DNA from: Nitrospirales bacterium
Lineage (GTDB): Bacteria; Nitrospirota; Nitrospiria; Nitrospirales; UBA8639
Assembly: GCA_963422365.1 (NCBI GenBank)
Contig: OY729426.1
Location: 928,001-992,000 of the forward strand
Length of the DNA stretch: 64,000 nucleotides
Direction of reading: 5' to 3'
Part shown: piece by piece, positions 12,187 to 40,091 of the stretch
Numbering within the stretch: position 1 is the first letter of the stretch
Layout of the letters: the number at the start of each line of letters is the position of its first letter
Position numbers and translations under genes: made by a program
Notes under the pieces: generated by a model
What the model was told of the DNA's origin: nothing
Seen by the model: the letters and a program-made list of their open reading frames with translations, nothing else
The model's database searches: none

Positions 12187-12231
12187 ACTCATTGGTCTCC
12201 TCTCCCATCATGGGAGAGGAGACCAATGAGT
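12187..12231. repeat. 45-bp near-perfect palindrome
   Basis: ACTCATTGGTCTCCTCTCCCAT-C-ATGGGAGAGGAGACCAATGAGT: 22-bp arms with a 1-nt centre. Confidence 0.95.
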
Positions 12232-12680: not shown

Positions 12681-13869
12681 ATGTTCGCTCGAATCATAAC
12701 TACCCCCCCCCCCCCCCTCAGAAAAATCGCCTGAGCTGACGATCCTGATCCTCTGCCGCGACGAGGAGAAGTCCATCGCCCGCTGCGTCGGCGAAGCCAG
12801 AGGGTTCCTGAACAGACACGCTATCGCCGGGGAGGTCCTGGTGGTGGACAACGCCAGCCGGGACCGCTCCGCGGAATTTGCGGAAGAGGCCGGCGCCCGC
12901 GTCGTTCAGGAGTCGCGGGCAGGCTACGGCAACGCGGTCAACGCCGGCATCCGAGCCGCCCGCGGCCGGCTCATCATCCTCGGCGATGGAGACGGGGAGC
13001 ACGACCTCGGCGCGCTGGCGCCGTTCTGGGAGAAGCTGCAAGGCGGCTGCGACTTCGTGTTCGGCAACCGCTTCGCCGGCGGCATCGAGGACGGCGCGAT
13101 GTCGTTCCTGCACCGACATGTGGGCAATCCGCTACTGTCGGGCCTCGGCAGGCTGTTCTTCCGCACGCCTGTGGGCGACTTCCATTGCGGCTTGCGGGGA
13201 TTCAAAGCCGCAAGCGTCCGCGCCCTCGCGCTGCAATGTCCGGGACACGAAGCGACGAGCGAGGTGGTCGTCAAGGCAGTGCGCAAGAACATGCGCATCG
13301 CCGAGGCGCCGGTCGTGCAACGCCGCGCCTTCGACCCCGACCGTTCTTCGCATTTGCGCACCTGGCGCGACGGCTGGCGCCATTTGTGCCTGCTGCTCAT
13401 GCTCTCCCCCCGCTGGTTGTTTCTCCATCCAGGCTACGCGTTGCTGGCGGCGGGCCTGGCCGCCATGGCCGCGCCGTTTCTGATTCCCGCCGGGTTCGGC
13501 GTCTACACCATGCTGTTCGGTTCGGCGTTCATCATCTGCGGCGTTCAGTTGGCGGCGTTCCACCTGTTGGCGCACATGTTCGGCGACACCATCGGCTTCA
13601 CTGACGGACGGCTATGGAACTGGGTGCGGCAACGCCGGATTCTGGAGCCCTGCCTCGCCGCAGGCTGCGCGCTGGCCCTGGTGGGCGTGGCGGGAAGCGT
13701 CTGGAGCCTGTTCGTCTGGGCGCAGACCGGCCCTGCGGAGATCGAGACGCGCCTGGCCGTCGCCATCCCCTCCGCCGCGCTGCTGGTCGTGGGCGTGCAG
13801 ACGATGTTCTTCGGCTTCCTGCTGGCGCTGCTCGCGACACAAGGGGCCGGAGCGAGAGTCGAGTCCTGA
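12681..13869 (+). CDS. GT2 polyprenyl-phosphate glycosyltransferase (DPM/GtrB-like) with C-terminal TM helices; out of frame at the poly-C tract
   Basis: Frame-1 homology starts at about 12730 (PELTILILCRDEEKSIARCV...VLVVDNASRD, GYGNAV, LGDGDGEHD, GDFHCGLRGF, SHLRTWRDGWRHL). Frame 1 has TAA at 12697; ATG 12681 joins it only if the tract is C14 or C17. Confidence 0.85.
12703..12717 (+). repeat. C15 homopolymer in the 5' end of the GT2 gene
   Basis: 15 consecutive C between ATG 12681 and the GT2 reading frame. Confidence 0.95.
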
Positions 13870-13899
13870 TATTGTCCCGGCTTGACGGAAAGTGCCTGG
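13669..13899 (+). repeat. Homology arm R1, copy 1 (GT2 3' end plus intergenic)
   Basis: Direct repeat of 15844-16074; same length (231 bp), scattered substitutions. Confidence 0.92.
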
Positions 13900-13904
13900 C
13901 TCTG

Positions 13905-15796
13905 ATGCTCCGCTCTCTCGGGGTATATACCGCAGTCCTCATTCTGGGCACGGGTTTCTTCTTCTTTCTGCACCACATCGGTAACGGGCTTCATTACGAG
14001 CAGGCGAAGCAACGGTTCTCCGACGACATCGCAGCGAATTTACCGAATACCTACGTTGGGTACGTCTCCCGTTTCAATAGTGCATTCACATACTGTCAGA
14101 TATCGCTGGCGGTGATAGAGGAGCGTGGTGGCAGGAAAAGTCCGACGGCAATCGTCCCTTGGTGGATGCCGTGCTGCCAATAACGTTCGCGAAAGAGATA
14201 GCGCCCGATTCGAACTATTGCGCCGAGGTCGAAGCTGTATCCGGTGGCGCGGTTCTCGGTACGTACCGGTTCAAGCCTCGATATTGGTGGGGTAGCAAGG
14301 CGATCTTCGCCATCGCACTGCGCTATCTGTCCATTATCGAGTTCTACCATATCATCTCGCTCATGACCTATGGAGCCTACTTTCTGCTTGCCAGTGCTCT
14401 GTTGTTGATCGGCTGGAGGACACTGCTGGTCACTGCTCCCTTGATAGTATTCGGTGCATTCTTCTCCGGCATCCGATATTTTTTAGGTGTGGAAAACGGC
14501 ATCCCGTATCTATGGGCAGTGCTGGCGGCGACTATCCTGACTCTGCTTCTGTGGCGGCACGGATCCGCGCGGGCGGCACCGCTGTTCTGCTTCACTGCGG
14601 GGATGGTGTCGTCCTATTTGTGGCTGTTCGATGGACACAACTTCCTTGCCATCGCGCTGATTGGGCTGATTGGCTGGCTCGGACACGAGCGCCTGAACAC
14701 ACGTGACCGGGTTCGACGAGTGAGTAGTTACCTTCTGCTTTACGCTGTCGGATTTATCCTTTGCTTCGCGGCGAACCAGGTAACCAAGACGGTCGTGTAT
14801 GAACAGGCAATCGTTGGCGGGAGCAATTATTTTGGCGGGGGCGTAGCAACGCATTTATTTAGTCAAGTTCTTTACCATTTGGAACGAATTTTCTCCCCTG
14901 AAGACAGGGATTTATATGGTCGGAGCATAGTCACCTTTTGGGGACTGTCACTGTCGTCAATCAGGCCGACAGTGGGCATCGCTCTGACCGGCCTTTCCGC
15001 GCTGGCGCTACTTGGAGCAGGATTCTTCGCCAGATATCAGGCGCGGCGCGGACACCCCGAGCTTGCCCGGAACATCCTGTGGATTGTCGGCATCATGCTG
15101 CTGGCCTGTGTCAATTTCTTACAACCCAATGACCTTCCTTATCGGGTCTCGCGGATCATGTTCGTGCCCCTCGCCCTTTGCTGGTCGTGCCTTATCCTGG
15201 CCGTTATGGATGCCGCGATTCCCCGATGGATTGTTCGCATTGCGGACCGACTCCCGTGGCGCAACCGACTGCTGCAAAGTGTCAACTGGCGCCATGCGAC
15301 CTGGGCCGGTCTTTTCCTGTTTGCGACGGCACTGTATTGGCACAATCCGCCGATACTGATCCTGCCAGACCGCAACACCGACGAAGGTCGGAGCCGGGAA
15401 AGGACGTTCTTGTTGGAGGCCGATGAGATTCGTTCCTCATACCAGCAATTCATGGTCGGCGAGCCGATTATACGCGCCGACTTCGATGTGTATCACAACA
15501 AGGGCAGTCTGTTGTACGTCAAAGAGAAGTGCACCGACGCTGATGCTGCCCCGCGCTTCTCCCTGCATGTCTTTCCGGTTGACCAGGATAACTTGCCTGC
15601 ATCCCGCTGGCCATATGGCTTCGACAACCTGGACTTTTTCTTCGACGAATACGGGTTTCGGCACGACGGGCGATGCGTCGTGGGGCGCAATCTCCCCGAC
15701 TATCGAATCGCCCGCATCCGCACCAGCCAATTCACCGCTGAGGGACAGCTATGGAAGGGCGAGCACCGCTTTGGCGGGAAGGATGCAACGCCATGA
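13905..15796 (+). pseudogene. Cassette gene A: polytopic membrane protein (putative GT-C-like) with C-terminal two-Cys domain; one frameshift near 14115-14160
   Basis: ATG 13905 (MLRSLGVYTAVLILGTGFFFFLHHIGN) is in frame 3 and the protein continues in frame 2 (ORF 14159-15796: RYWWGSKAIF, many TMs, GEPIIRADFDVY...IRTSQF). Could be a sequencing error. Confidence 0.7.
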
Positions 15797-15852
15797 GGCG
15801 CTTCGGGATTGACGGGTTCACCGCACTCTTGGCGGCAATCGGGGCGCTGGCC
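15707..15852 (+). repeat. Homology arm R2, copy 1 (domain 3' end plus MRRFGIDGFTALLAAIGALA start)
   Basis: Direct repeat of 17688-17833 (offset 1981). Confidence 0.92.
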
Positions 15853-16044
15853 CTGGCGGGCGCGGCGGGAGGCGTCTGGAGCCTGTTCGTCTGGGTGCAG
15901 ACCGGCCCTGCAGCCATCGAGACGCGCCTGACCGTCACCATCCCCTCCGTCGCCATGCTGGTCGTCGGCCTCCAGACGATGTTCTCCGGCTTCCTGCTGG
16001 CGCTGCTCGCGACACAAGGAGCGGGAACGAGAGGCGAGTCCTGA
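15793..16044 (+). pseudogene. Chimeric junction ORF (N-terminus of gene C fused to C-terminus of GT2)
   Basis: MRRFGIDGFTALLAAIGALA (as at 17774) joined in frame, through the shared 9-mer GCGCTGGCC, to LAGAAGGVWSLFVWVQTGPAAIETRL...ES (GT2 tail). Confidence 0.85.
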
Positions 16045-16074
16045 CGCTGCCCCGGCTTGACGGAAAGTTCCTGG
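15844..16074 (+). repeat. Homology arm R1, copy 2
   Basis: Direct repeat of 13669-13899. Confidence 0.92.
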
Positions 16075-16076
16075 AT

Positions 16077-17777
16077 TTGTGGAGTTTGACTTTAGTGCTA
16101 CCGAGTAGAACCGCTGCCGCCCCACTGCGTTTCCCGAGCATGCATGGCGTTGATTCGCCGGCCTCCGCCGTCAGACATCTCATTGTCTGCCTGCACGTAC
16201 TCTTCTTCAGCTACCTCACAATCAACCACCCGTGGCTCTACAAAGCGCTGACCATGGAGGATTACTGGGTGGAGAACACCACCGCCGGCCTGTTTCTTCT
16301 CACAGGCCTCTTGCTGTTCGCCACGGCTTGGGCGGAGAAGGGTGTTTTCCACCGCTGCCTCTATATCCTTGGCGGCTTGGTGATGGTGTTCGTCGCGGGC
16401 GAGGAGATCAGTTGGGGGCAGCGCCTGATCGGATTTGCGACTCCGGATGCCCTGATGGACATCAATGCTCAGGAAGAGTTCAATCTTCACAATATCGACA
16501 TCAATCTATTCTATCTCATACAGCTTTACGGATCGTTGGGTCTGTGCGTTGCAGCGTGCGCCGCCTATTTCGCCAGGAAGACCGCACTGTTCGGGATTCC
16601 CCTGCCGTCCATTTGGATAGCGTTGGGCTCTCTCGTGCTGTTGTCATGTACGTGGGATCCGAGAATTGGCGAGGGCGAGGCCTATCCTGTCTTCAGGGAC
16701 AGACACTTTCTGCTGCCGATCCTCTCCATCGCGCTGCTGATTATTTTCATCTGCTCCCTCTTTCGCAGACAAGGAAAGCTGGTCGTCGCCGCTGTTGTCA
16801 CCGTGGCGACCGTTCTGACCAGTTTGTATGTGAACGCCCATCAACCCATCATTCAAGAAGGAGTCAACGAAACACGGGAATATCTGCTGGGCCTTCTCTG
16901 CCTTTTCTATTCCTGGGAACTGTTTTCGGTTCAGCCGCGGTGGAGGACAGCCTTGCCGGCTGCGCTCCCCGTTCTGGCGCTTCGGGACATTCGACTCCCC
17001 ATCTGGCATGGCACGGCTTGGCTGATCGTCGGCGGCGGCATCGCATTGGCATCCTGGCAACATTTCTTGATCAAGACAGACGCTGCCTTGATCGGTGACG
17101 GACGCGAACCAATCATTCGTTCCCGATTTGATGTTTACTCGAGCGAGCGCCGCTTGATATTCGTCAAGGAAGCGTGCCGATCCGAGGATATCGGCAGGCT
17201 GATCTTCCTGCAAATGGCCGGGGCCGGGGAGCGTGGCGCCAATCTCTACTTCGCCGTCCCACGGGCCAGATTGACGGACGATGGCCGATGCATCGTTGGC
17301 CTCAACCTTCCCTACGACATCACCCGAATCAGAACCGGCTGGCACACCCCTGAAAGAGGTATATGGAAAGAGATATGGGACAAGTGGTTCTTGTTCGATG
17401 TCGCCGATCTTAGCTCATCCTATCAGCAAGCCACGGCTGGCGAACCGATCGTCAGCTCCCACTTCGACGTATACCGCCACGAAGACAGGCTGATATACCT
17501 CAAGGAACAGTGCACGGAGACAGACACCGAGCCGCCCTTCTTTTTGCACCTCATCCCGGTTGACGCGGCCGACTTTCCCGACCACCGGCGACAATACGAT
17601 TTCGACAACATGGACTTCCACTTCGGTCCCTACGGATCTGTGGACGATGGGCGCTGCGTGGCGACGCGCCGTCTTCCCAGCTACGCCATCGCCGCCATCC
17701 GCACCGGCCAATTCACCGCTGAGGGGCAGCTATGGAAGGGCGAGCACCGTTTTGGCGTGGCGGATGTAACGCCATGA
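16077..17777 (+). CDS. Cassette gene B: GEEISWGQR-motif membrane protein with two C-terminal two-Cys domains
   Basis: EDYWVEN, FVAGEEISWGQRLIGFATP...NAQEEFNLHN, multiple TMs, two domain copies. Start uncertain (16140 possible). Confidence 0.8.
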   Translation: MWSLTLVLPSRTAAAPLRFPSMHGVDSPASAVRHLIVCLHVLFFSYLTINHPWLYKALTMEDYWVENTTAGLFLLTGLLLFATAWAEKGVFHRCLYILGGLVMVFVAGEEISWGQRLIGFATPDALMDINAQEEFNLHNIDINLFYLIQLYGSLGLCVAACAAYFARKTALFGIPLPSIWIALGSLVLLSCTWDPRIGEGEAYPVFRDRHFLLPILSIALLIIFICSLFRRQGKLVVAAVVTVATVLTSLYVNAHQPIIQEGVNETREYLLGLLCLFYSWELFSVQPRWRTALPAALPVLALRDIRLPIWHGTAWLIVGGGIALASWQHFLIKTDAALIGDGREPIIRSRFDVYSSERRLIFVKEACRSEDIGRLIFLQMAGAGERGANLYFAVPRARLTDDGRCIVGLNLPYDITRIRTGWHTPERGIWKEIWDKWFLFDVADLSSSYQQATAGEPIVSSHFDVYRHEDRLIYLKEQCTETDTEPPFFLHLIPVDAADFPDHRRQYDFDNMDFHFGPYGSVDDGRCVATRRLPSYAIAAIRTGQFTAEGQLWKGEHRFGVADVTP

Positions 17778-17833
17778 GACGCTTCGGGATTGACGGGTTC
17801 ACCGCACTCTTGGCGGCAATCGGGGCGCTGGCC
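17688..17833 (+). repeat. Homology arm R2, copy 2
   Basis: Direct repeat of 15707-15852. Confidence 0.92.
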
Positions 17834-20089
17834 GGCGGGCTCGTCCTGTTGCGCACGAATAACTACGGGGCAGCGATAGCAGGAGATTCCCTTCTCTATC
17901 TCTCTGTGGCGGAAAATCTGCTGGATGGAAACAGCTTCGTCGCATGGCACACTAAGAGAATCTACCTGGATGGGGCGCCCCTGTTTCCGCTGGCGGTGGC
18001 TGGAGTCGGCCTGTTAGGCGTGGAGGTTCTCGAAGCCGCCCGGTACCTGAACGCCGCCGCCTTCGGGCTGACCGTCTTCGTGACCGCGATGTGGCTGCGC
18101 TGCCGCGTCGCACCACACTTTCTGGTCCTTTGGTCCGCCTGTGCCTGCGCTCTGTCCGTGTCTCTGTCCACCAGCGCCGCATCGGTCATGACGGAGACTC
18201 TTTTCCTCCTGTTCGCCACGCTCTCGCTGTTCAGCTTGGATCGCTTCCTGGATACGCGTCAGAAGTGGCTGCTGCTCACGGCGGGCCTTTGCGCGGGTTT
18301 GGCGTGGGCGACCCGCTACATCGGCGTCACCGTCGTGGCCAGCGCCCTGCTTCTGTTGCTGTTGCAGGGCAGGACGGCGTTCCCCACCAGGATAAGGTAC
18401 GCCGCCCTCTTCGCTATCATTGCCGGGGCGCCCGTGGGCCTGTGGATGCTGCGCAACGTTCTGCACACGGGTATGCCGTTGGGCGTTGTGTACCCGACAG
18501 GCTTCTCCCTGCTGTCCAGTCTCCATGTTGCCAGTGATGAGTTTATCGAATGGATGATTGGGGAGAACGCGTTTCGTTTTTTAGGCGCCAGGCTCGCCGA
18601 AATTGTAGCTGGCATCACCGAAGGGGGCGAGATTGTCTTCATGTCGTTGAAGGTCGGTTTCCTGCTGGCGGTGGCATCCGGTGTCATCTATGCGCTGATA
18701 CGCCTGCGTCGACGAGGTTACGCGCAAAGCTGGAGCATATGGGCCGTCCCCGTCGCCTTCGCATCCATCTATGGGGTTTTCCTTACGTTTCACCTGCCGC
18801 TTATCGATGTGAACCTCCCTCCAAGGTATCTCGCGCCGCTCTATGTGCCGTTGCTGGTGGCGGCAACATTGTTTCTGAACGAGGTCCTGCGTTGCGCCGC
18901 CCCTGCGCGTTCGTTGGCAATGCCATCCTTCCTGCGGAAATGGAGCGGCGGGGCCAAAACGATTGCAAACGGACCTGCACTCGCCCTGACGGCCTGTCTG
19001 TCGCTCTGGCTCTTCTCGCATTCGTACGCAAACTATAGTGACATACGACATTGGGTGAACAACGGTTACGGCTACGCATCCAGGCAATGGCGAGATTCCA
19101 GCACCATCCGCTATTTGGACAATTACCTGCACGATGAAGATGTCTGGAGCAACAACGCTACCTCAATTCAATTCCTGTTGGATGCGCCCGGCCGGAACAG
19201 CAACAAGCTGCCTTACGCCAGGCCGACGCCGGACAACTTGCGCCGCTGGCTGGGCATCGACGGCTGGATCCGCCAGTTCGATCCGTACATCGTCTGGTTC
19301 CATGGCGTGAACGAAGCGCGTTACGACTACGACCTTGCGGAGCTCGCTGCGCTGCCCGGCGTGCAGGTGGAGGCGGTTCTGGAAGACGGCGTCGTGTTCA
19401 AAGCCGTGGGGCCGCGCATCGGCTTCCACGTGTCCTATGACAAAAACGAGAACAAGCTGATCTATGTCAGGGAAAATTGCCGCGCGGAGGACCTCGAAGC
19501 ACCGGTCTTCCTGCGCGTCTTCCCGATGGACAAGGCCGACCTGCCCGACAGCCGCCGCCGTTACGGTTCCGACAACCTCGATTTTCATCTCGGCAGAAGA
19601 GTTTCATACTTGGACGGACGATGCGTTGCGGAGCGCGATCTCCCCGACTACGCCATCGCCCGTATGGACACCGGCCAATACACTGCCGAAGGGCGGATAT
19701 GGAGGGTATGGCTCCACCCTTCCGACGACGCCGAGCGCCGTCCGTCGTACCAGCAAATCATGGCTGACGGACCGATTATCCGCGCCGACTTCGACATGTA
19801 CCTGGACGACTACAGCCTGATTTACGTCAAGGAAGGATGCCGCGCGGAGGACCTCGACGCCCCTGTCTTTCTGCACGTCTTCCCGATGGACAAGGCCGAC
19901 CTGCCCGACAGCCGCCGCCGTGACGGTTTCGAACACCTCGATTTTCATCTCGTCAGAAGAGTTTTATACCTGGACGGAAGATGCATTGCGGTGCGTGATC
20001 TTCCCGACTATCCCATTGGCCGCATCCACACTGGCCAGTTCATACAAGGTCAAGGCAGGCTGTGGACGAGTGAATTCAGTCCCGATTGA
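17774..20089 (+). CDS. Gene C: ArnT/PMT-like (GT-C fold) glycosyltransferase with two C-terminal two-Cys domains
   Basis: ATGA overlap with gene B; GDSLLYLSVAENLLDG, APLFPL, MTETLF, ATRYIG, RYLAPLY; about 12 TMs, then an extracytoplasmic region. Confidence 0.82.
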   Translation: MRRFGIDGFTALLAAIGALAGGLVLLRTNNYGAAIAGDSLLYLSVAENLLDGNSFVAWHTKRIYLDGAPLFPLAVAGVGLLGVEVLEAARYLNAAAFGLTVFVTAMWLRCRVAPHFLVLWSACACALSVSLSTSAASVMTETLFLLFATLSLFSLDRFLDTRQKWLLLTAGLCAGLAWATRYIGVTVVASALLLLLLQGRTAFPTRIRYAALFAIIAGAPVGLWMLRNVLHTGMPLGVVYPTGFSLLSSLHVASDEFIEWMIGENAFRFLGARLAEIVAGITEGGEIVFMSLKVGFLLAVASGVIYALIRLRRRGYAQSWSIWAVPVAFASIYGVFLTFHLPLIDVNLPPRYLAPLYVPLLVAATLFLNEVLRCAAPARSLAMPSFLRKWSGGAKTIANGPALALTACLSLWLFSHSYANYSDIRHWVNNGYGYASRQWRDSSTIRYLDNYLHDEDVWSNNATSIQFLLDAPGRNSNKLPYARPTPDNLRRWLGIDGWIRQFDPYIVWFHGVNEARYDYDLAELAALPGVQVEAVLEDGVVFKAVGPRIGFHVSYDKNENKLIYVRENCRAEDLEAPVFLRVFPMDKADLPDSRRRYGSDNLDFHLGRRVSYLDGRCVAERDLPDYAIARMDTGQYTAEGRIWRVWLHPSDDAERRPSYQQIMADGPIIRADFDMYLDDYSLIYVKEGCRAEDLDAPVFLHVFPMDKADLPDSRRRDGFEHLDFHLVRRVLYLDGRCIAVRDLPDYPIGRIHTGQFIQGQGRLWTSEFSPD

Positions 20090-20494
20090 TGGACAGTCTC
20101 ATCGTGACCAAACCCCAAGCCGCAGCGTGAAATGCCATGAAGCCCGCTGATTATTTCTATCTGCTTCTGGCGCCCGTACTGCTGTCCGCCGGACAGGTCC
20201 TGTTTAAGAAAACGGCGGACGCGGCGGTCACGCATTCGCTGTCCCGATTTCTCGGCTCGCTGCTCGCCAGCCCGCACTTCTGGGCCGCCCTTTTCATTTA
20301 CGGCGCGGCGACGCTTTTGTGGGTGTTCACGCTGTCCCGCGTGCCGCTCGGCCGGGCCATGCCCTTCGTCGCCCTGACCTTCGTCATCGTGCCATTGATT
20401 GGCGCGGCGTTCTTCGGCGAGCGGCTGAACCTTCTGTACTGGCTGGGCGTCTGCGTCATCGTCATCGGCGTTTGCATGACGGTCGCGGCTCAGG
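19988..20494 (+). repeat. Homology block R3, copy 1 (domain 3' end, spacer and SMR/EamA gene)
   Basis: Direct repeat of 22967-23472. Confidence 0.92.
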
Positions 20495-20511
20495 CCGCGG
20501 CCGCAAGATAG
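20137..20511 (+). CDS. Small EamA/SMR (ArnE/F-like) transporter, putative lipid-linked sugar flippase
   Basis: 124 aa, 4 TMs; GQVLFKK, LWVFTLSRVPLGRAMPFVAL, FFGERL. Confidence 0.82.
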   Translation: MKPADYFYLLLAPVLLSAGQVLFKKTADAAVTHSLSRFLGSLLASPHFWAALFIYGAATLLWVFTLSRVPLGRAMPFVALTFVIVPLIGAAFFGERLNLLYWLGVCVIVIGVCMTVAAQAAAAR

Positions 20512-20710
20512 CGAGCTTTGCGCGCGGACGGATTCGAAATCATGCAATGGTGCGGGCTTGCTTGGTGCCTGACGCTTCTGGCGCTGGCGGTTACTTTCGG
20601 CGCGCTCTGTGCTTTCTTCCATTGGCGAACGATTTTGATGGTGACGGTGAGAAGGGATAAAGCCGTCTACGAGCTTGCAGGGCGGCGATTGGGTATAGTA
20701 TGGCTTTGAT

Positions 20711-23068
20711 ATGGTCCTGGAATCGCCCTCAATGGAAATGCGTAGGCACCGTCCCACATTGACGAAGATGGCGCACAGGGTTCTCGTTGTCTTTATCCTC
20801 TCGAAATGTGCTGCACTCGACGTAATGGCGCAGCCGGCATTCAAGCTTGAACCGATCGCCGATGGCGCGGCATTCGCGAAACGGGCCGATCTGGCCCCGG
20901 GCGACACCCTCGAACTGGCCGTCCATGCAAAGAACGCCCGCCGCCTAACCTTCCAGATAGAGCGAATCGGGCGGAAATATGAGCACCAGCCCGCGGAACA
21001 CTGTTATGACGGGATCGGCGGGGATGCCATAGCGGATTATCCGGTTCAGATAGGTTGCCCTTCCAGCCATATACGGAGAGGCTGGTTCAACTGCCGTTCA
21101 TGCAACGGCGTATGGCTTGCGTCCGTGAACAGCGACGCTGAATGCCGATGGTTCATGCTGCGGCTACCGCAGCCCGCCAAGTTACCAGCCCTACACGCCC
21201 CCCCAAGTCCCTTACCCCCACTTTCCCTAATGGCAGGCCCACAGCCCGCGCCGGTGATTCAGGAATTCCGCGGCAACCGCTATGTGTCGTTTGCCACGTG
21301 GGAATACAACGTTAAGGTGCCCATTCCGGAAGACTGGCCAAATGGCTTCTACAGATTCGTTGTGTTCTCTCCCAATGGAGCCGTGCAAGAAAGGGTACCG
21401 TTCCATGTTGAGAACCTATCCAAGCCGGCGGCGGTATGCTTCGTGTCCTCTCACCTGACTGCGGCGGCGTACAATACAGCCTTTGGAGCGAGCCTTTACA
21501 AAGGGTTCGACGGGGATGCGTACCAGTCCAAGTTGCGAGCTTCCGCCGTCACCATGCAGCGGCCGCGAAGCGCCTATTATTCCCATATCTGGCCGGCTGT
21601 GAAATTTATCGAACGTTTGGATGTACCAATCCGCTATACAACGACCCTGGCGGTTCACAAAGACCCGACCTTGCTCGATGGGTGCCGCGCTATCGTTCTA
21701 GCCTTTCATCCCGAGTACATATCGGCCCGGCTGCGTAATGCCATTGTGGAGGCCATCGAGCGGGGTGTGCATCTGTTGTCCTTCTCCGCCAATGCCTTCT
21801 ACTGGCGGGTGGAGTTGGATCAAGACGCCTACGGCCACGACATCATGATCCTTGATAGGGCTGGCGGCGATCAGTGGAGAAACCAGGGCACTTTATTCAG
21901 CGAACAAAACATCTTCGGAGCCCAGTATATAAGTGGCGCCTGGGGCGGCGAACCTATGCCCTTTGTTGTGGAACCCCGTATGGGCGCCCATGAAACGCCG
22001 GACCCGGGACTTATGTCACATTGGATATTCGAGGGCACGGGATTGCGTTTCGGAGACAGAATCGCCGACCTAATGAGCGGGGAGGTTGACTCGCTTGATC
22101 CGTCCTTCCCTGTTCCTGACGTGCAGGAGCAGATTGTGTTCCTCTCCCCTTACTACAATCATGAAGGAAAAGAGTTCATGGCGCACACGTCGTACTTCAT
22201 GCGCCCGAGCGGCCAGATGACTTTTCATTCGGCGTCGTTGCGGTTCCAGCACGCCTTGGCGTCCGCAAAGGAACCGGAAAGGAAAATCCAGCGGATGATC
22301 AAGAATATCCTGAGGAAGATGCTGCATCCGGACGACGGACTCATATCCAAAAGCAGCAGCAAGGATTCGCACACCTTCCGCTATGCCAAGTCTCATCTGC
22401 ACGACGGCCGTATCTGGAGCAATCGCAGCGATATGTCCTATTTCCCGATGTATATAAGGGAAAAGGTTTACTCACTGCCGACATCTCTACCGTATCCGGA
22501 CGACGTGTGTCGCTGGGTCGGCTGTGGCGCCACAGGATCTAATGTCTATCTCGTCTGGTTCTACGAGGCAGAAACGTCACGTTACGAATACGGACCCAAG
22601 GAGCTTGCCGCATCGTTGCCCGGCATGCAGGTCGAGGCGACTCTGGAGGATGGAATCATATTCAAGATCAGCAAGGATTCATGCAACAATACGGAACATC
22701 TGGATAAAAAGACAATTCTGGAGACTATCGGCGAGGACGCCCGACTGCTTACCCGCTCTGACTTTGATGTGTATCAGGACAAGAACGAAAACAGGCTGAT
22801 TTACGTCCGGGAGGAATGTGGCGGCGAAGATAGTCGCCCTGAATTTTTTCTGCACATCTTCCCCGTGAACAGAGCAGACCTCCCTGCAGAGCGCCGCCGC
22901 TTTACTTATGACAATTTGGATTTTTGCTTCGATTATCACGGGTTTCATGACGGTGCGCGTTGCGTGGCGGTGCGTGATCTTCCCGACTATCCCATTGCCC
23001 GCATCCGAACCGGCCAGTTCATACAGGGTCAAGGCAGACTGTGGACGAGTGAATTCAATCCCGATTGA
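20711..23068 (+). CDS. Gene D: secreted N,N-dimethylformamidase-beta-like domain fused to the gene-C-type extracytoplasmic tail and a two-Cys domain
   Basis: AYNTAFGASLY...TMQRP, HPEYIS, LSFSANAFYWRV, HWIFEGTGL..GD...GEVD. The C-terminus (IWSN...VWFY...RYEY...LPGMQVEATLEDGIIFK) parallels gene C. Start possibly 20768. Confidence 0.72.
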   Translation: MVLESPSMEMRRHRPTLTKMAHRVLVVFILSKCAALDVMAQPAFKLEPIADGAAFAKRADLAPGDTLELAVHAKNARRLTFQIERIGRKYEHQPAEHCYDGIGGDAIADYPVQIGCPSSHIRRGWFNCRSCNGVWLASVNSDAECRWFMLRLPQPAKLPALHAPPSPLPPLSLMAGPQPAPVIQEFRGNRYVSFATWEYNVKVPIPEDWPNGFYRFVVFSPNGAVQERVPFHVENLSKPAAVCFVSSHLTAAAYNTAFGASLYKGFDGDAYQSKLRASAVTMQRPRSAYYSHIWPAVKFIERLDVPIRYTTTLAVHKDPTLLDGCRAIVLAFHPEYISARLRNAIVEAIERGVHLLSFSANAFYWRVELDQDAYGHDIMILDRAGGDQWRNQGTLFSEQNIFGAQYISGAWGGEPMPFVVEPRMGAHETPDPGLMSHWIFEGTGLRFGDRIADLMSGEVDSLDPSFPVPDVQEQIVFLSPYYNHEGKEFMAHTSYFMRPSGQMTFHSASLRFQHALASAKEPERKIQRMIKNILRKMLHPDDGLISKSSSKDSHTFRYAKSHLHDGRIWSNRSDMSYFPMYIREKVYSLPTSLPYPDDVCRWVGCGATGSNVYLVWFYEAETSRYEYGPKELAASLPGMQVEATLEDGIIFKISKDSCNNTEHLDKKTILETIGEDARLLTRSDFDVYQDKNENRLIYVREECGGEDSRPEFFLHIFPVNRADLPAERRRFTYDNLDFCFDYHGFHDGARCVAVRDLPDYPIARIRTGQFIQGQGRLWTSEFNPD

Positions 23069-23472
23069 TGGACAGTCTCATCGTGACCAAACCACAAACC
23101 GCAGCGTGAAATGCCATGAAGCCCGCCGATTACTTTTATCTGCTTCTGGTGCCTGTGCTGTTGTCCGCCAGACAGGTATTGTTCAAGAAAACAGCGGACG
23201 CGGCGGTCACGCATTCGCTGTCCCGGTTTCTCGGTTCGCTGCTCGCTAGTCCGCACTTCCGGGTCGCCCGTGCGTGTACGGCGCGGCGACATTGCTGTGG
23301 GTGTTCATGTTGTCCCGGGCGCCGCTCAGCCGGGCGATGCCCTTCATCGCCCTGACCTTCGTTATCGTTCCGGCGGTCGGCGTGGCGTTCTTCGGCGAAC
23401 GGCTGAATTTCATGTACTGGCTCGGTGTCTGCGTCATCGTCATCGGCGTTTGCATGACGGTCGCGGCTCAGG
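22967..23472 (+). repeat. Homology block R3, copy 2
   Basis: Direct repeat of 19988-20494; the offset changes from 2979 to 2978 (net 1-nt deletion). Confidence 0.92.
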
Positions 23473-23483
23473 GTTCGCGGTGA
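23116..23483 (+). pseudogene. Second EamA/SMR flippase copy, frameshifted near 23260-23280
   Basis: MKPADYFYLLL...SPHF, then continues in another frame as YGAATLLWVFMLSRAPL...TVAAQ. Confidence 0.85.
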
Positions 23484-23546
23484 GGGCATGAGGATGACAG
23501 GATCTGCATCGGGCAACCTGGCGCTCGGCGTTCTGGGCGAGGCGCT

Positions 23547-24888
23547 TGTCCTGTTGCGGGAAGTCAACTGCGGCGCCGAGGGCGACTACCGCTGCGTGTA
23601 CGCAAATGTCGAAGCCGGGCAGACAGGTCGTGAGGATGCGGGCGATTCTCAGCGAACTGGCGTTGCAGGCCTGGGTGGGGCTTCGGGATGAATTCCTGGA
23701 CCTGGTCTGGTTCGACATATTGGAACAGTCGGGACCCGATGGCGCACTGAGGGAAATCCTGAGCCGCTGCTCTCAGGCTGACCCGCGCTCCCTGGTGCTG
23801 CTCATCGACGAGATTGATGCTTTGATTGGCGACACCCTGCTGTCCGTGCTGCGCCAACTGCGGCTGCGTCCGGCGAGTTTTCCGTAAAGTATCATCTTGT
23901 GCGGGGTGCGCGACTACCGCATCCATTCCAGCGCCGAACAGGCCATCATCGACGGTGGCAGCGCCTTCAACATCAAAGCCGCGTCCTTACGCCTTGGCGA
24001 TTTCTCAGAGAGGGAAGTGCGTGCGCTGCTTGTCCAACATACCGAGGAAACAGGCCAGGCGTTTACCGAGGAGGCCTTGAAGGATGAACAGCCATGGCTG
24101 GTCAACGCACTCGGCTCTCAGACCTGTTTTGAGAGCAACGCCGGTCACGGTCGAGGCCGTCACCAAAGCGCGGGAAGAACTCATCCTGCGCCGCGAGACG
24201 CATCTGGACCAGCTCACGGACAAGCTGCAAGAAGACAGGGTACGGCGGGTGGTTGAACCCTTGTTGAGCGGAGGCGACGAGCGCGACTTCTTTGCCCACG
24301 ACCTGGAGTAGGTTCGCGACCTGGGCCTTATCGCGATAGACTCACCGCTGCGCATTGCCAATCTCATCTATGCGGAAGTCGTGCCATGGGATCTCGCCTA
24401 TGCTGCTCAGGAAGGATTTGTGGAGGACACCGCTTGGTATGTGAACACCGATGGCGGTCTGAACGTCGAAAAGCTGTTGGCCGCCTTCCGGACATTCTTC
24501 CGCGAACACTCGGAGCACTAGGTAGCCCGCTTCGACTACCAGGAGGCCGGGCCACAATTATTGTTGCAGGCGTTCCTGCAACGGATTGTGAACGGCGGCG
24601 GGCGTATAGAGCGGCAATATGGTCTGGGTCGAAAACGCACTGATCTGTTAATCATCTGGCCACAAGGTGAACGCACGCGCAAGTTCGTGGTCGAGTGCAA
24701 GGTTTTGCATAAGAGCCTGGAGCACATTATTCGCGCCGGGCTTGAGCAGACCGCCGACTACATGGATCTCTGTGCAGAGGCTGGGCACCTGATTATCTTC
24801 GATCTTGGCGAGGGCCGCTGGGAAGACAAGATATTCCTCCGCCACGAGTCAACCGGCACTGTTGAAATCGAGGTGTGGGGGGATGTAA
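23547..24888 (+). pseudogene. Degraded AAA ATPase with C-terminal PD-(D/E)XK-like domain
   Basis: Pieces in several frames with stops: LVLLIDEIDALIGDTLLSVLRQLR, SAFNIKAASLRLGDF, RRETHLDQL, EAGPQLLLQAFLQRIVNGGGRIERQYGLGRKRTDL..VVECK. The 5' end with Walker A is missing. Confidence 0.85.
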
Positions 24889-24948
24889 CGTCCGTTACGG
24901 CACTAGGACGGATTGAGGAGCTTCCCGTAATTATGGGAATATGGTGGC

Positions 24949-25215
24949 ATGAAGACGACTATTGAACTCCATGACGCCACGTTTCGTCAGGCCAAGGCTC
25001 TTGCCGCTGACCGCGGTGTCATCTTGAAGCGGCTCTTCACCGAAGCACTTGACAACCAGTTCCACCGATGCGCGAACGAAACCCGTGCCGGCGAAACTGG
25101 GGTTACCTGGATGGCAGGGTTCTGAGCGCTATCGGGCCTCTCCGACGAGAACGGTCGTGTTCTCGATGCGATCGAGGAAGAGTTCGAGAGGCTCGACCAC
25201 GAAGACATTGCATGA
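24949..25215 (+). pseudogene. RHH-type antitoxin remnant (internal TGA at 25123); no toxin follows
   Basis: MKTTIELHDATFRQAKALAADRGVILKRLFTEAL...; near-palindrome TTCCCGTAATTATGGGAA (24922-24939) just upstream. Confidence 0.6.
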
Positions 25216-25796
25216 TCGGGGGTTTCTTCATAGGTTTGCTTGGACTGCCGTCCGGCAGTCCAAGCAAACCTATGTCGTCGCGGCGGCGGTGCTGTTCACC
25301 TAGGGCTTGCCCATGCTGCGCGTGGCGCTGCTGGCGGCGGTCATCCTCGTCTTCTTCAGTGGCATGGATCTGCTGAAAATCTTCATCTACGAAGGATAGC
25401 CGGACGTGATTCCATTCCTATGGGAACAATGCGGTGCAAGGGGGTTTTATTCATTGGAACCGCTCCTGGGGAGTTCATCTGAATGTCCAAGGGGTGCTGC
25501 CGACCTCCATGTGGAGCCCACAACATCGCATTCCATCCGTGCTCGCGCCGTTGCTGATGATGTAGCGTCGCCGCCACCCCCGCTTTCTGGCCGACCCCGG
25601 CCTGTTCCGGCGACGCTGCTGTCCTTCTCCTCGGTCTACGGCCTTTACGACAAGACAGGGTCTCTACCGAGGTGACCTGTCTTTCCGGGATCATGCTGAC
25701 CTTTGACAGCATAGTGGTCTTCGTGCAGGAAGGCCGCTTCCGACAGTTGCGTGTCAAGTCAGGCATGGCGCTTGCTGCCCTTTATCATCCACAGGG

Positions 25797-39739: not shown

Positions 39740-40091
39740 GGGGGTGACTGGCTTCGACGGGGATCAAGAGGTCAACGGTGCGTGTCGAGCTCTCGGAGTC
39801 TCGTTAAACCTTCGGGAAACCTATAATTGCCAACGAACCATTGGCTCTCGCAGCTTAATTGACTGCGACGTCTCCCCATTCTCTGTCTGCGGGCATGGAT
39901 GAGGCGCTACTTCAGCAGGCTGGTCCAATGTTGGTGCTCAGCAACGACGGATGAGACTTTTCTGGGCTAGCAAACGCTCTAAGCCGGTCAGTGGGCGTGG
40001 GCGGGTGCGAATCCTCAAACATTGACTACGCACGTAGGACCGTTGTGCTGAATGTCTTCGGACGCGGGTTCAAATCCCGCCACCTCCACCA
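39740..40091 (+). ncRNA. ssrA: tmRNA
   Basis: 5' GGGGGTGACTGGCTTCGAC, tag ORF ANEPLALAA* (39829-39858), T-arm GCGGGTTCAAATCCCGC, acceptor stem with G-U pair and 3' CACCTCCACCA. Confidence 0.97.

What the first reader, a model, noticed from the sequence alone, without database searches (positions are those of the whole stretch)
13669..17833. Tandem alternative-cargo cassettes between duplicated homology arms
Seen: the layout is R1-geneA-R2/R1-geneB-R2. R1 (231 bp) is the GT2 3' end; R2 (146 bp) is the shared domain's 3' end plus the start of gene C. R2 and R1 are fused at the 9-bp microhomology GCGCTGGCC, present natively in both GT2 (13669) and gene C (17825), and the fusion creates an in-frame chimeric ORF (15793-16044). 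Genes A and B look unrelated apart from the C-terminal domain, so this is not a simple duplication: two different occupants of the same slot are stacked. Inference: an integrase-free cassette system in which recombination at R1 or R2 excises, adds or swaps surface-modifying genes while keeping translational coupling. I know of no description of this locus type.
Basis: partly seen in the sequence, partly recalled or inferred. Interest (0 to 1): 0.82.

Follow-up and report, generated by a model that had tools for sequence, protein, structure and literature searches.

The report
Stacked surface-sugar genes from two alleles
A bacterium carries two different membrane-protein genes stacked behind two diverged copies of the same gene tail, likely the scar of ordinary recombination between versions of a surface-sugar gene island shared across bacterial phyla rather than a dedicated cassette machine, though the same layout recurs behind an unrelated gene in a relative.

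Summary
The layout R1-A-R2/R1-B-R2 is real, joined at a 9-bp microhomology (chance about 8e-5). The arms are not matched: R1 copies are 89% identical, and R2 is the last ~146 nt of an Ig-like domain shared by the whole family. The second R1 resembles the GT2 tail of a GT2-B-C locus in an alphaproteobacterium (12 of 17 sites), so the stack likely joins two alleles of a horizontally shared glycosylation island (GT2, ArnE-like flippase, GT-C proteins A and C; B unknown). The slot after GT2 holds A, B, C or the flippase in different genomes, and A has a B-type tail grafted on, so homologous swapping is supported. A dedicated system is not: none of 4 other loci with a close GT2 carries a stub, excision was not seen, and A is frameshifted. 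One relative shows the same geometry behind lgt (1 of 34 genomes). The GT2 start has a poly-C run, out of frame here (C15) and in frame (C8) in another sample. The scan noted the poly-C switches and the shared domain in this same genome before; it found no look-alike on other DNA.

The parts
12681..13869 (+). GT2 glycosyltransferase with membrane tail (polyprenol-phosphate sugar synthase type); out of frame at its start in this assembly
   Evidence: PF00535 E 4.6e-20; best NCBIfam AglJ/DPM-synthase models, all below cut-off; 91% to L020, 72% to L021
12703..12717 (+). C15 run 22 nt after the ATG; C8 would be in frame; likely a phase-variable switch
   Evidence: frames; X2 contig has C15, X4 contig on the same unique flank lacks 7 C (tables 4 and 8); L020 has about C33 in frame, L021 C8
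13669..13899 (+). R1a: native GT2 3' end plus about 30 nt that encode the first residues (LxRLDGK) of the next gene
   Evidence: same start peptide in P0122 and similar in P0001
13872..15796 (+). Gene A, predicted GT-C fold membrane glycosyltransferase with one C-terminal Ig-like domain; frameshifted near 14115-14160
   Evidence: 5' part 62% to P0122 N-terminus; model pLDDT 85; 9 of the top 10 VIA rows are GT-C enzymes, best Pmt4 Z 10.4, rmsd 5.6, 335 aligned
15446..15775 (+). Shared ~110-aa two-cysteine beta-sandwich (Ig/FN3-like) domain of A; its last ~90 nt are B-type
15707..15852 (+). R2a: B-type domain end plus the first 60 nt of gene C
   Evidence: 136/146 to R2b, 132/146 to L020
15844..15852 (+). 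9-bp microhomology join between the gene C start and the GT2 tail
   Evidence: chance of 9 or more about 8e-5 at local base composition
15793..16044 (+). 83-aa chimeric ORF (C start + GT2 tail), overlaps A's stop (ATGA)
   Evidence: only 1 other hit among 219 candidates, a 56-aa GT2 tail without the C start
15844..16074 (+). R1b: second GT2 tail, from the B-linked allele
   Evidence: agrees with L020 at 12 of 17 sites where R1a and R1b differ
16077..17777 (+). Gene B, multi-pass membrane protein of unknown function with two Ig-like domains (one decayed)
   Evidence: no Pfam hit; no GT-C match in Foldseek or VIA; 85-93% homologs in several genomes
17688..17833 (+). R2b: domain end of B plus the native start of gene C
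17774..20089 (+). Gene C, GT-C type (PMT_2) membrane glycosyltransferase with two Ig-like domains
   Evidence: PF13231 E 1.8e-5, just under cut-off; 87-90% to L020
20137..20511 (+). EamA/ArnE-like small flippase
   Evidence: PF00892 E 1.8e-7; ArnE/ArnF models below cut-off
20711..23068 (+). Gene D (DMFA2_C domain + C-like middle + Ig-like domain), second stacked cargo
   Evidence: PF20254 E 4.7e-52; absent from L020
22959..23473 (+). Second copy of domain end + EamA (frameshifted) closing the downstream stack; pairs with 19980-20495

Best explanation
The region is a horizontally shared gene island, predicted to decorate the cell surface with sugars, in which two versions of the same locus (GT2-A-C and GT2-B-C) were likely joined once by ordinary recombination: a homologous crossover on one side and a 9-bp microhomology join on the other. 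Shown: the island is missing from close kin and about 90% identical to a locus in another phylum; the post-GT2 slot varies; R1b is of the B-linked allele; A has a grafted B-type tail; the genome encodes RecA and ComEC. Inferred: the join arose by homology-facilitated illegitimate recombination of taken-up DNA, or by single-crossover entry of a circle closed at the same 9-mer (same product). R1 and R2 are by-products. RecA could still delete A (R1 x R1, 2175 nt) or B (R2 x R2, 1981 nt) and restore a one-cargo operon, but slowly at 89-93% identity. The in-frame chimera would hand translation on to B as GT2 does, which may be why this join survived (one in three joins is in frame by chance). Inferred function: GT2 loads a sugar on a lipid carrier, the EamA protein flips it, GT-C proteins A and C transfer it outside; the poly-C run likely switches GT2 on and off.
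For: Arms diverged, 89% and 93%. R1b sides with L020 at 12 of 17 sites. GT2-B-C-EamA as a single-cargo locus at 90% nt in a Thalassobaculaceae chromosome; GT2-C with an empty slot in a Bryobacterales chromosome. No long match above 78% to the island in 37 same-genus genomes, while both flanks are in 37 of 37; GC about 60% vs 53%. Identity step at ~15700; the EHRFG tail occurs only in the 6 closest B homologs of 239 proteins, and in A. Other irregular joins in the family: GT2 middle fused out of frame to C middle in G055, C-like start fused to B body (P0008; loose end at 16143), domain end joined to the B start (loose end at 16080). Same geometry behind lgt in G023. RecA and an 868-codon ComEC frame. 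HFIR with 3-10 bp joins is described (PMC6382021, passages).
Against: No single-cargo GT2-A-C locus was fetched; it rests on P0122's start peptide and one X1 contig linking R1a to A at 93%. The two gene C starts are identical over 54 nt while L020 differs there, which fits duplication followed by replacement at least as well. The junction is not bridged by any listed short-read contig. Natural competence is inferred from one gene. GT-C Z scores (up to 10.4) are modest for helical proteins, and B has no assigned fold.
Confidence: 0.55

Rival explanations
1. Duplication first, swap second: a microhomology-bounded tandem duplication of GT2 tail-B-C start arose in one allele, then the first copy was replaced by A through homologous crossovers in GT2 and in the domain end.
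For: 54-nt perfect identity of the two C starts; A ends in a B-type tail; tandem repeats of 80-98% over Ig-domain genes in 13 of 24 other loci examined, by my reading; spontaneous duplications at short microhomologies are described in Salmonella (PMC3411829, passages).
Against: Needs two events and an unstable intermediate; the right crossover must fall in under 150 nt of homology; no B-B tandem with this junction was found.
Confidence: 0.28
2. A dedicated integrase-free cassette system: the arms are kept by selection so that cells add, excise or swap surface genes at a useful rate.
For: Variable slot; kept translational coupling; the same geometry with a duplicated lgt tail, ribosome site, start codon and poly-C leader before each of two unrelated cargoes in G023; a second stack in this island.
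Against: Arms diverged; 0 of 4 other close-GT2 loci have a stub; the lgt stack is in 1 of 34 genomes with an lgt-tail match; anchors and junctions differ each time; A is frameshifted; depth shows no clear loss of A or B; no excision joint among the 15 of 56 joints listed.
Confidence: 0.12
3. Assembly artefact: two co-existing strain alleles placed in tandem.
For: The samples hold many alleles of the island (depth well above the flanks); no listed contig bridges the junction.
Against: One-contig genome; a 9-bp overlap is far too short for an assembler join (own knowledge); zero-difference contigs on A's end and on R1b-B have about the depth of the unique flanks in X2 (135 and 134-168 vs 125-139), X4 (294-375 and 332-402 vs 269-282) and equal depth in X5 (89 vs 90) (contig depth is a rough measure, the three runs are one study and one may be the source).
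Confidence: 0.05

Closest known systems
Homology-facilitated illegitimate recombination (HFIR) in Acinetobacter baylyi, Streptococcus pneumoniae, Pseudomonas stutzeri (via PMC6382021, passages)
   Same: A homologous anchor on one side, a short (3-10 bp) join on the other, RecA dependent, no integrase
   Different: Shown in the laboratory with transformation; here inferred from a natural scar that leaves both alleles stacked with duplicated ends
Three-component periplasmic glycosylation systems, GtrA/GtrB/Gtr* of Shigella and Salmonella; ArnC/ArnEF/ArnT (PMC11127046, passages)
   Same: Lipid-phosphate sugar synthase (GT2), small flippase, GT-C transferase in one cluster; variable GT-C genes
   Different: Several unrelated GT-C and non-GT-C membrane genes sharing an Ig-like tail; no prophage integrase; poly-C switch in GT2; substrate unknown
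Replacement and additive flexible genomic islands of Alteromonas (PMC4898812, passages)
   Same: Surface-glycan genes swapped by homologous recombination; added cassettes leave a repeat of the target gene's end behind them
   Different: Single-gene scale; targets are tails of protein genes (GT2, lgt, domain+EamA), 230-500 nt and diverged, not tRNA att sites; exchange spans phyla
Polymorphic toxin cassette arrays, Rhs/CDI type (PMC3482391, passages)
   Same: Alternative modules stacked behind a fragment of the upstream gene, able to replace the front module by recombination
   Different: Whole downstream genes vary, not a toxin tip with immunity gene; arrangement is sporadic, not a family hallmark
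Integron cassette arrays (recalled)
   Same: Tandem unrelated cargo genes in one direction
   Different: No IntI, no attC; repeats are coding fragments

Membership tests
Integron / site-specific cassette array | Tyrosine or serine recombinase with the array | tested here: not met
   PF00589: 4 genes, none within 300 kb; PF00239: none found in a 98.6% complete genome
Integron / site-specific cassette array | attC-type inverted-repeat sites between cassettes | tested here: inconclusive
   Repeats between cargoes are direct coding fragments; no short-spaced inverted pair among the 25 of 26 listed between 12.7 and 23.5 kb; no attC model was run
HFIR product | Short microhomology at the illegitimate join | tested here: met
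   9 bp, GC-rich, chance about 8e-5
HFIR product | Homologous anchor shared by donor and recipient | tested here: met
   GT2 and C are 85-100% identical between alleles in 100-nt blocks
HFIR product | Formed by RecA during natural transformation | not testable with these tools
   recA and comEC present; the event cannot be observed
Three-component glycosylation system | Polyprenol-phosphate sugar synthase (GT2) | tested here: inconclusive
   PF00535 met; AglJ, DPM-type and ArnC models hit below cut-off
Three-component glycosylation system | Small flippase | tested here: inconclusive
   EamA over cut-off; ArnE/ArnF below cut-off; not GtrA
Three-component glycosylation system | GT-C fold transferase | tested here: met
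   A: 9 of top 10 VIA rows are GT-C; C: PMT_2 E 1.8e-5. B: inconclusive
Three-component glycosylation system | Transfer of a lipid-linked sugar to a surface acceptor | not testable with these tools
   needs biochemistry
Additive flexible genomic island at tRNA/tmRNA | tRNA or tmRNA target | tested here: not met
   Only RNA gene in the window is tmRNA at 39740, 14 kb beyond the island
Rhs/CDI-type cassette array | Toxin tip plus immunity gene after a core fragment | tested here: not met
   Cargoes are membrane proteins of GT-C or unknown type
Simple-sequence contingency locus | Long run in the 5' coding region that varies in length and shifts the frame | tested here: met
   C15 out of frame here and in X2, C8 in frame in X4; the X4 contig also has 5 other differences, so strain difference rather than switching is possible

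The most novel reading that the evidence does not exclude
Host-associated marine bacteria of several phyla share a pool of surface-modifying membrane genes that spread without integrases as 'tail-tagged' cassettes: each carries the 3' end of the gene it last sat behind, with ribosome site, start and sometimes a poly-C switch, so it enters the same slot in any genome that has the anchor and stacks in front of the older cargo, leaving a reversible array. The GT2 stack here, the EamA stack beside it and the lgt stack in G023 would be three snapshots of one general route.
Probability: 0.25. Interest if true: 0.75.

Novelty: new variant of a known kind. Interest (0 to 1): 0.45.

Why it matters
It is a clean natural record of how surface-glycosylation genes move between phyla and pile up without mobile-element enzymes, and it gives exact junctions to test with long reads or PCR. 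If tail-tagged stacking proves general, it would explain the long mixed arrays of these uncharacterised membrane genes and tie gene exchange to phase variation in a non-pathogen. As it stands the mechanism class is known and the arrangement is sporadic.

Tried and rejected
Two scans of the JGI metagenome contigs (junction pattern, GT2-tail pattern) found 0 matches: no test of recurrence. The genome scan with GT2 covered 16 of 64 parts and gave only 3 loci above 50% among 80. Family searches around G054 (63 genomes) and G055 (77) and a 301-genome draw around G056 gave no further close GT2 locus (the 4 one-mismatch hits were not examined). One search used an off-frame query and is disregarded; one search repeats it (strong match in 1 of 114 other family genomes, weak 24-35% matches in 14). 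Raw Hi-C reads of X7 laid 0 reads: no test. Cluster membership of the chimera and its neighbours could not be looked up, so its spread stays open. No solved-structure sequence match for A or B, no Foldseek hit at E<=0.001, no atlas hit for B; absence of a GT-C match for B is inconclusive. Promoter and terminator counts equal chance (2 vs 1.9; 6 vs 5.3), so no internal promoter in R1 is claimed. P0242, a 56-aa stand-alone GT2 tail on a contig of the same length as B homolog P0002, may be a frameshift product and is not counted as a second stack. P0008 shows another 5' join of B but not a two-cargo stack. Literature: no paper describing this locus type came up (listings only); the library lacks most subscription journals, and no supplements were read.
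Full report
1. Observation. R1a (13669-13899) and R1b (15844-16074) align at 89.2% over 231 nt; R2a (15707-15852) and R2b (17688-17833) share 136 of 146 nt. The 9-mer lies at 13669, 15844 and 17825 and is the overlap of the join; a random join would give 9 or more matching bases with chance about 8e-5. The 83-aa chimera is in frame and overlaps A's stop as gene C overlaps B's. A and B are homologous only in the C-terminal domain.

2. Setting. The genome is one 2.50-Mb contig. Earlier notes of this scan call it a Nitrospirales bacterium, probably a sponge symbiont; I did not test taxonomy or habitat. The stretch from about 12.6 to 25.7 kb is GC-rich (about 60% vs 53%). Its flanks occur in 37 of 37 same-genus genomes, while only 5 of 37 have any match to the island, none above 78% over a long piece. 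A Thalassobaculaceae chromosome (L020) holds GT2-B-C-EamA at about 90% nt between IS-type genes; a Bryobacterales chromosome (L021) holds GT2 directly followed by a C-like gene; G015 holds GT2-EamA twice; an Acidimicrobiales genome has the GT2 alone. In four read sets the island is far deeper than its flanks, so many organisms carry alleles. Gene transfer between sponge symbionts is documented (PMC8163846, passages).

3. Proteins. GT2 is of the lipid-phosphate sugar synthase type and the small gene resembles ArnE/F flippases, both below model cut-offs. C hits PMT_2 just under cut-off. The A model (pLDDT 85) has GT-C enzymes in 9 of its top 10 structural matches, best Z 10.4, modest for a helical protein but consistent. 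B (pLDDT 80) has no clear fold match. The shared domain is an Ig/FN3-like sandwich. This is the make-up of a three-component glycosylation system (PMC11127046, passages); activity is inferred.

4. Do A and B co-occur? Zero-difference contigs on A's end and on R1b-B have about the depth of the unique flanks in X2 and X4 and equal depth in X5. These runs are one study, one may be the source, and contig depth is rough; in X4 the front of A is twice the flank depth, so other carriers exist. None of the 24 listed of 170 pieces bridges the junction, and the raw-read run laid nothing. Mis-assembly is unlikely but not formally excluded.

5. How it arose. R1b agrees with the B-linked GT2 tail of L020 at 12 of 17 discriminating sites, R1a at 5: the two arms come from different alleles. 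A's domain is 57-73% like B's up to 15699 and 77-100% after it, and ends in a tail found only in the 6 closest B homologs among 239 proteins: A was grafted onto a B-type end by a crossover inside the domain. A-like P0122 and B-like P0001 both begin with the peptide encoded just after the GT2 stop. So the slot is swapped by homology, and one microhomology join stacked two alleles. Anchor plus 3-10 bp join is HFIR (PMC6382021, passages; the original paper was not held); recA and comEC are present, no recombinase is near. Duplication followed by replacement gives the same product and is favoured by the 54-nt identity of the two C starts; I cannot separate the orders.

6. Is it a system? Against: diverged arms; no GT2 stub at the 4 other close-GT2 loci; one other hit for the chimera among 219 candidates, lacking the C start; other joins in the family are all different; tandem repeats over these genes are common anyway (13 of 24 loci picked for having hits, my reading); no excision joint among the 15 of 56 listed. 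For: G023 has intact lgt, a poly-C-led B-like gene, a domain scrap, then a 93% copy of the lgt tail with ribosome site, start and poly-C run, then an unrelated gene, but that is 1 of 34 genomes with an lgt-tail match. In G005 a B-like gene occurs 4 times, in the 3 copies examined beside a decayed response-regulator stub. The geometry recurs, each time with another anchor: a general by-product, possibly favoured by selection.

7. Switch. C15 breaks the GT2 frame; X2 has C15, X4 has C8, in frame, with 5 other differences in 751 nt. The genome has 10 C/G runs of 15 or more against 0.009 expected, 9 followed by an open frame of about 300 codons or more.

8. Known and new. Closest: HFIR, three-component glycosylation, replacement and additive islands (PMC4898812, passages), toxin cassette arrays (PMC3482391, passages). 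Searches listed no paper on this locus type; other searches were seen as listings, with passages read for the six papers cited; no supplements were read. Integron features are recalled. Verdict: observation confirmed, interpretation partly supported, new variant of a known kind, interest 0.45.

Noticed in passing
window 12703-12717; G000 genome-wide: C15 run in the GT2 start, C8 in run X4; 10 runs of 15 or more C/G in the genome vs 0.009 expected, 9 of them in front of long open frames, several of surface-protein look.
   Followed up: partly
L160:6109-9405 (G023): Intact lgt, poly-C-led B-like gene, then a 93% copy of the lgt tail with start and poly-C run before an unrelated gene: same stack geometry, other anchor; 1 of 34 genomes.
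   Followed up: yes
L161:4163-7655 and 15262-17667; L162:8398-10768 (G005): A 2.4-kb unit of decayed sigma54 response-regulator 5' stub plus B-like gene at 3 examined sites (91-92% alike), a 4th B copy elsewhere; one sits before an intact regulator; no transposase seen in the unit.
   Followed up: partly
window 19980-23473: Second stack: domain end + EamA, gene D (DMFA2_C + C-like middle + Ig domain), domain end + frameshifted EamA; contigs of X2 and X4 carry a 1-base insertion at 23269.
   Followed up: partly
window 23489-24965: A C-like leader stub (23520-23558) runs into a broken AAA-type gene in pieces at the island's right side.
   Followed up: no
L156:8442-9938 (G055): GT2 middle fused out of frame to the middle of a C-like gene, a deletion join.
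   Followed up: partly
L018 (G000:C1:1396855-1413600); L155, L157, L158, L163, L166, L168, L170: Long arrays of genes ending in the same Ig-like domain, with tandem repeats of 80-98%; the G000 array is headed by a C22 run and lies beside mrp/lgt.
   Followed up: partly
L016/L017 (G015:C1:2377000-2399000): GT2-EamA-cargo duplicated at 94-95% next to gyrA-like gene, followed by six tandem ~1.95-kb membrane-protein paralogs.
   Followed up: no
window 25608-25778: A ~170-nt stretch about 70% like sequences inside or beside Ig-domain gene arrays of G023, G048, G052 and elsewhere in G005; role unknown.
   Followed up: no
window 12187-12231 and 25229-25274: Perfect or near-perfect hairpins at both edges of the island, probably terminators.
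   Followed up: no
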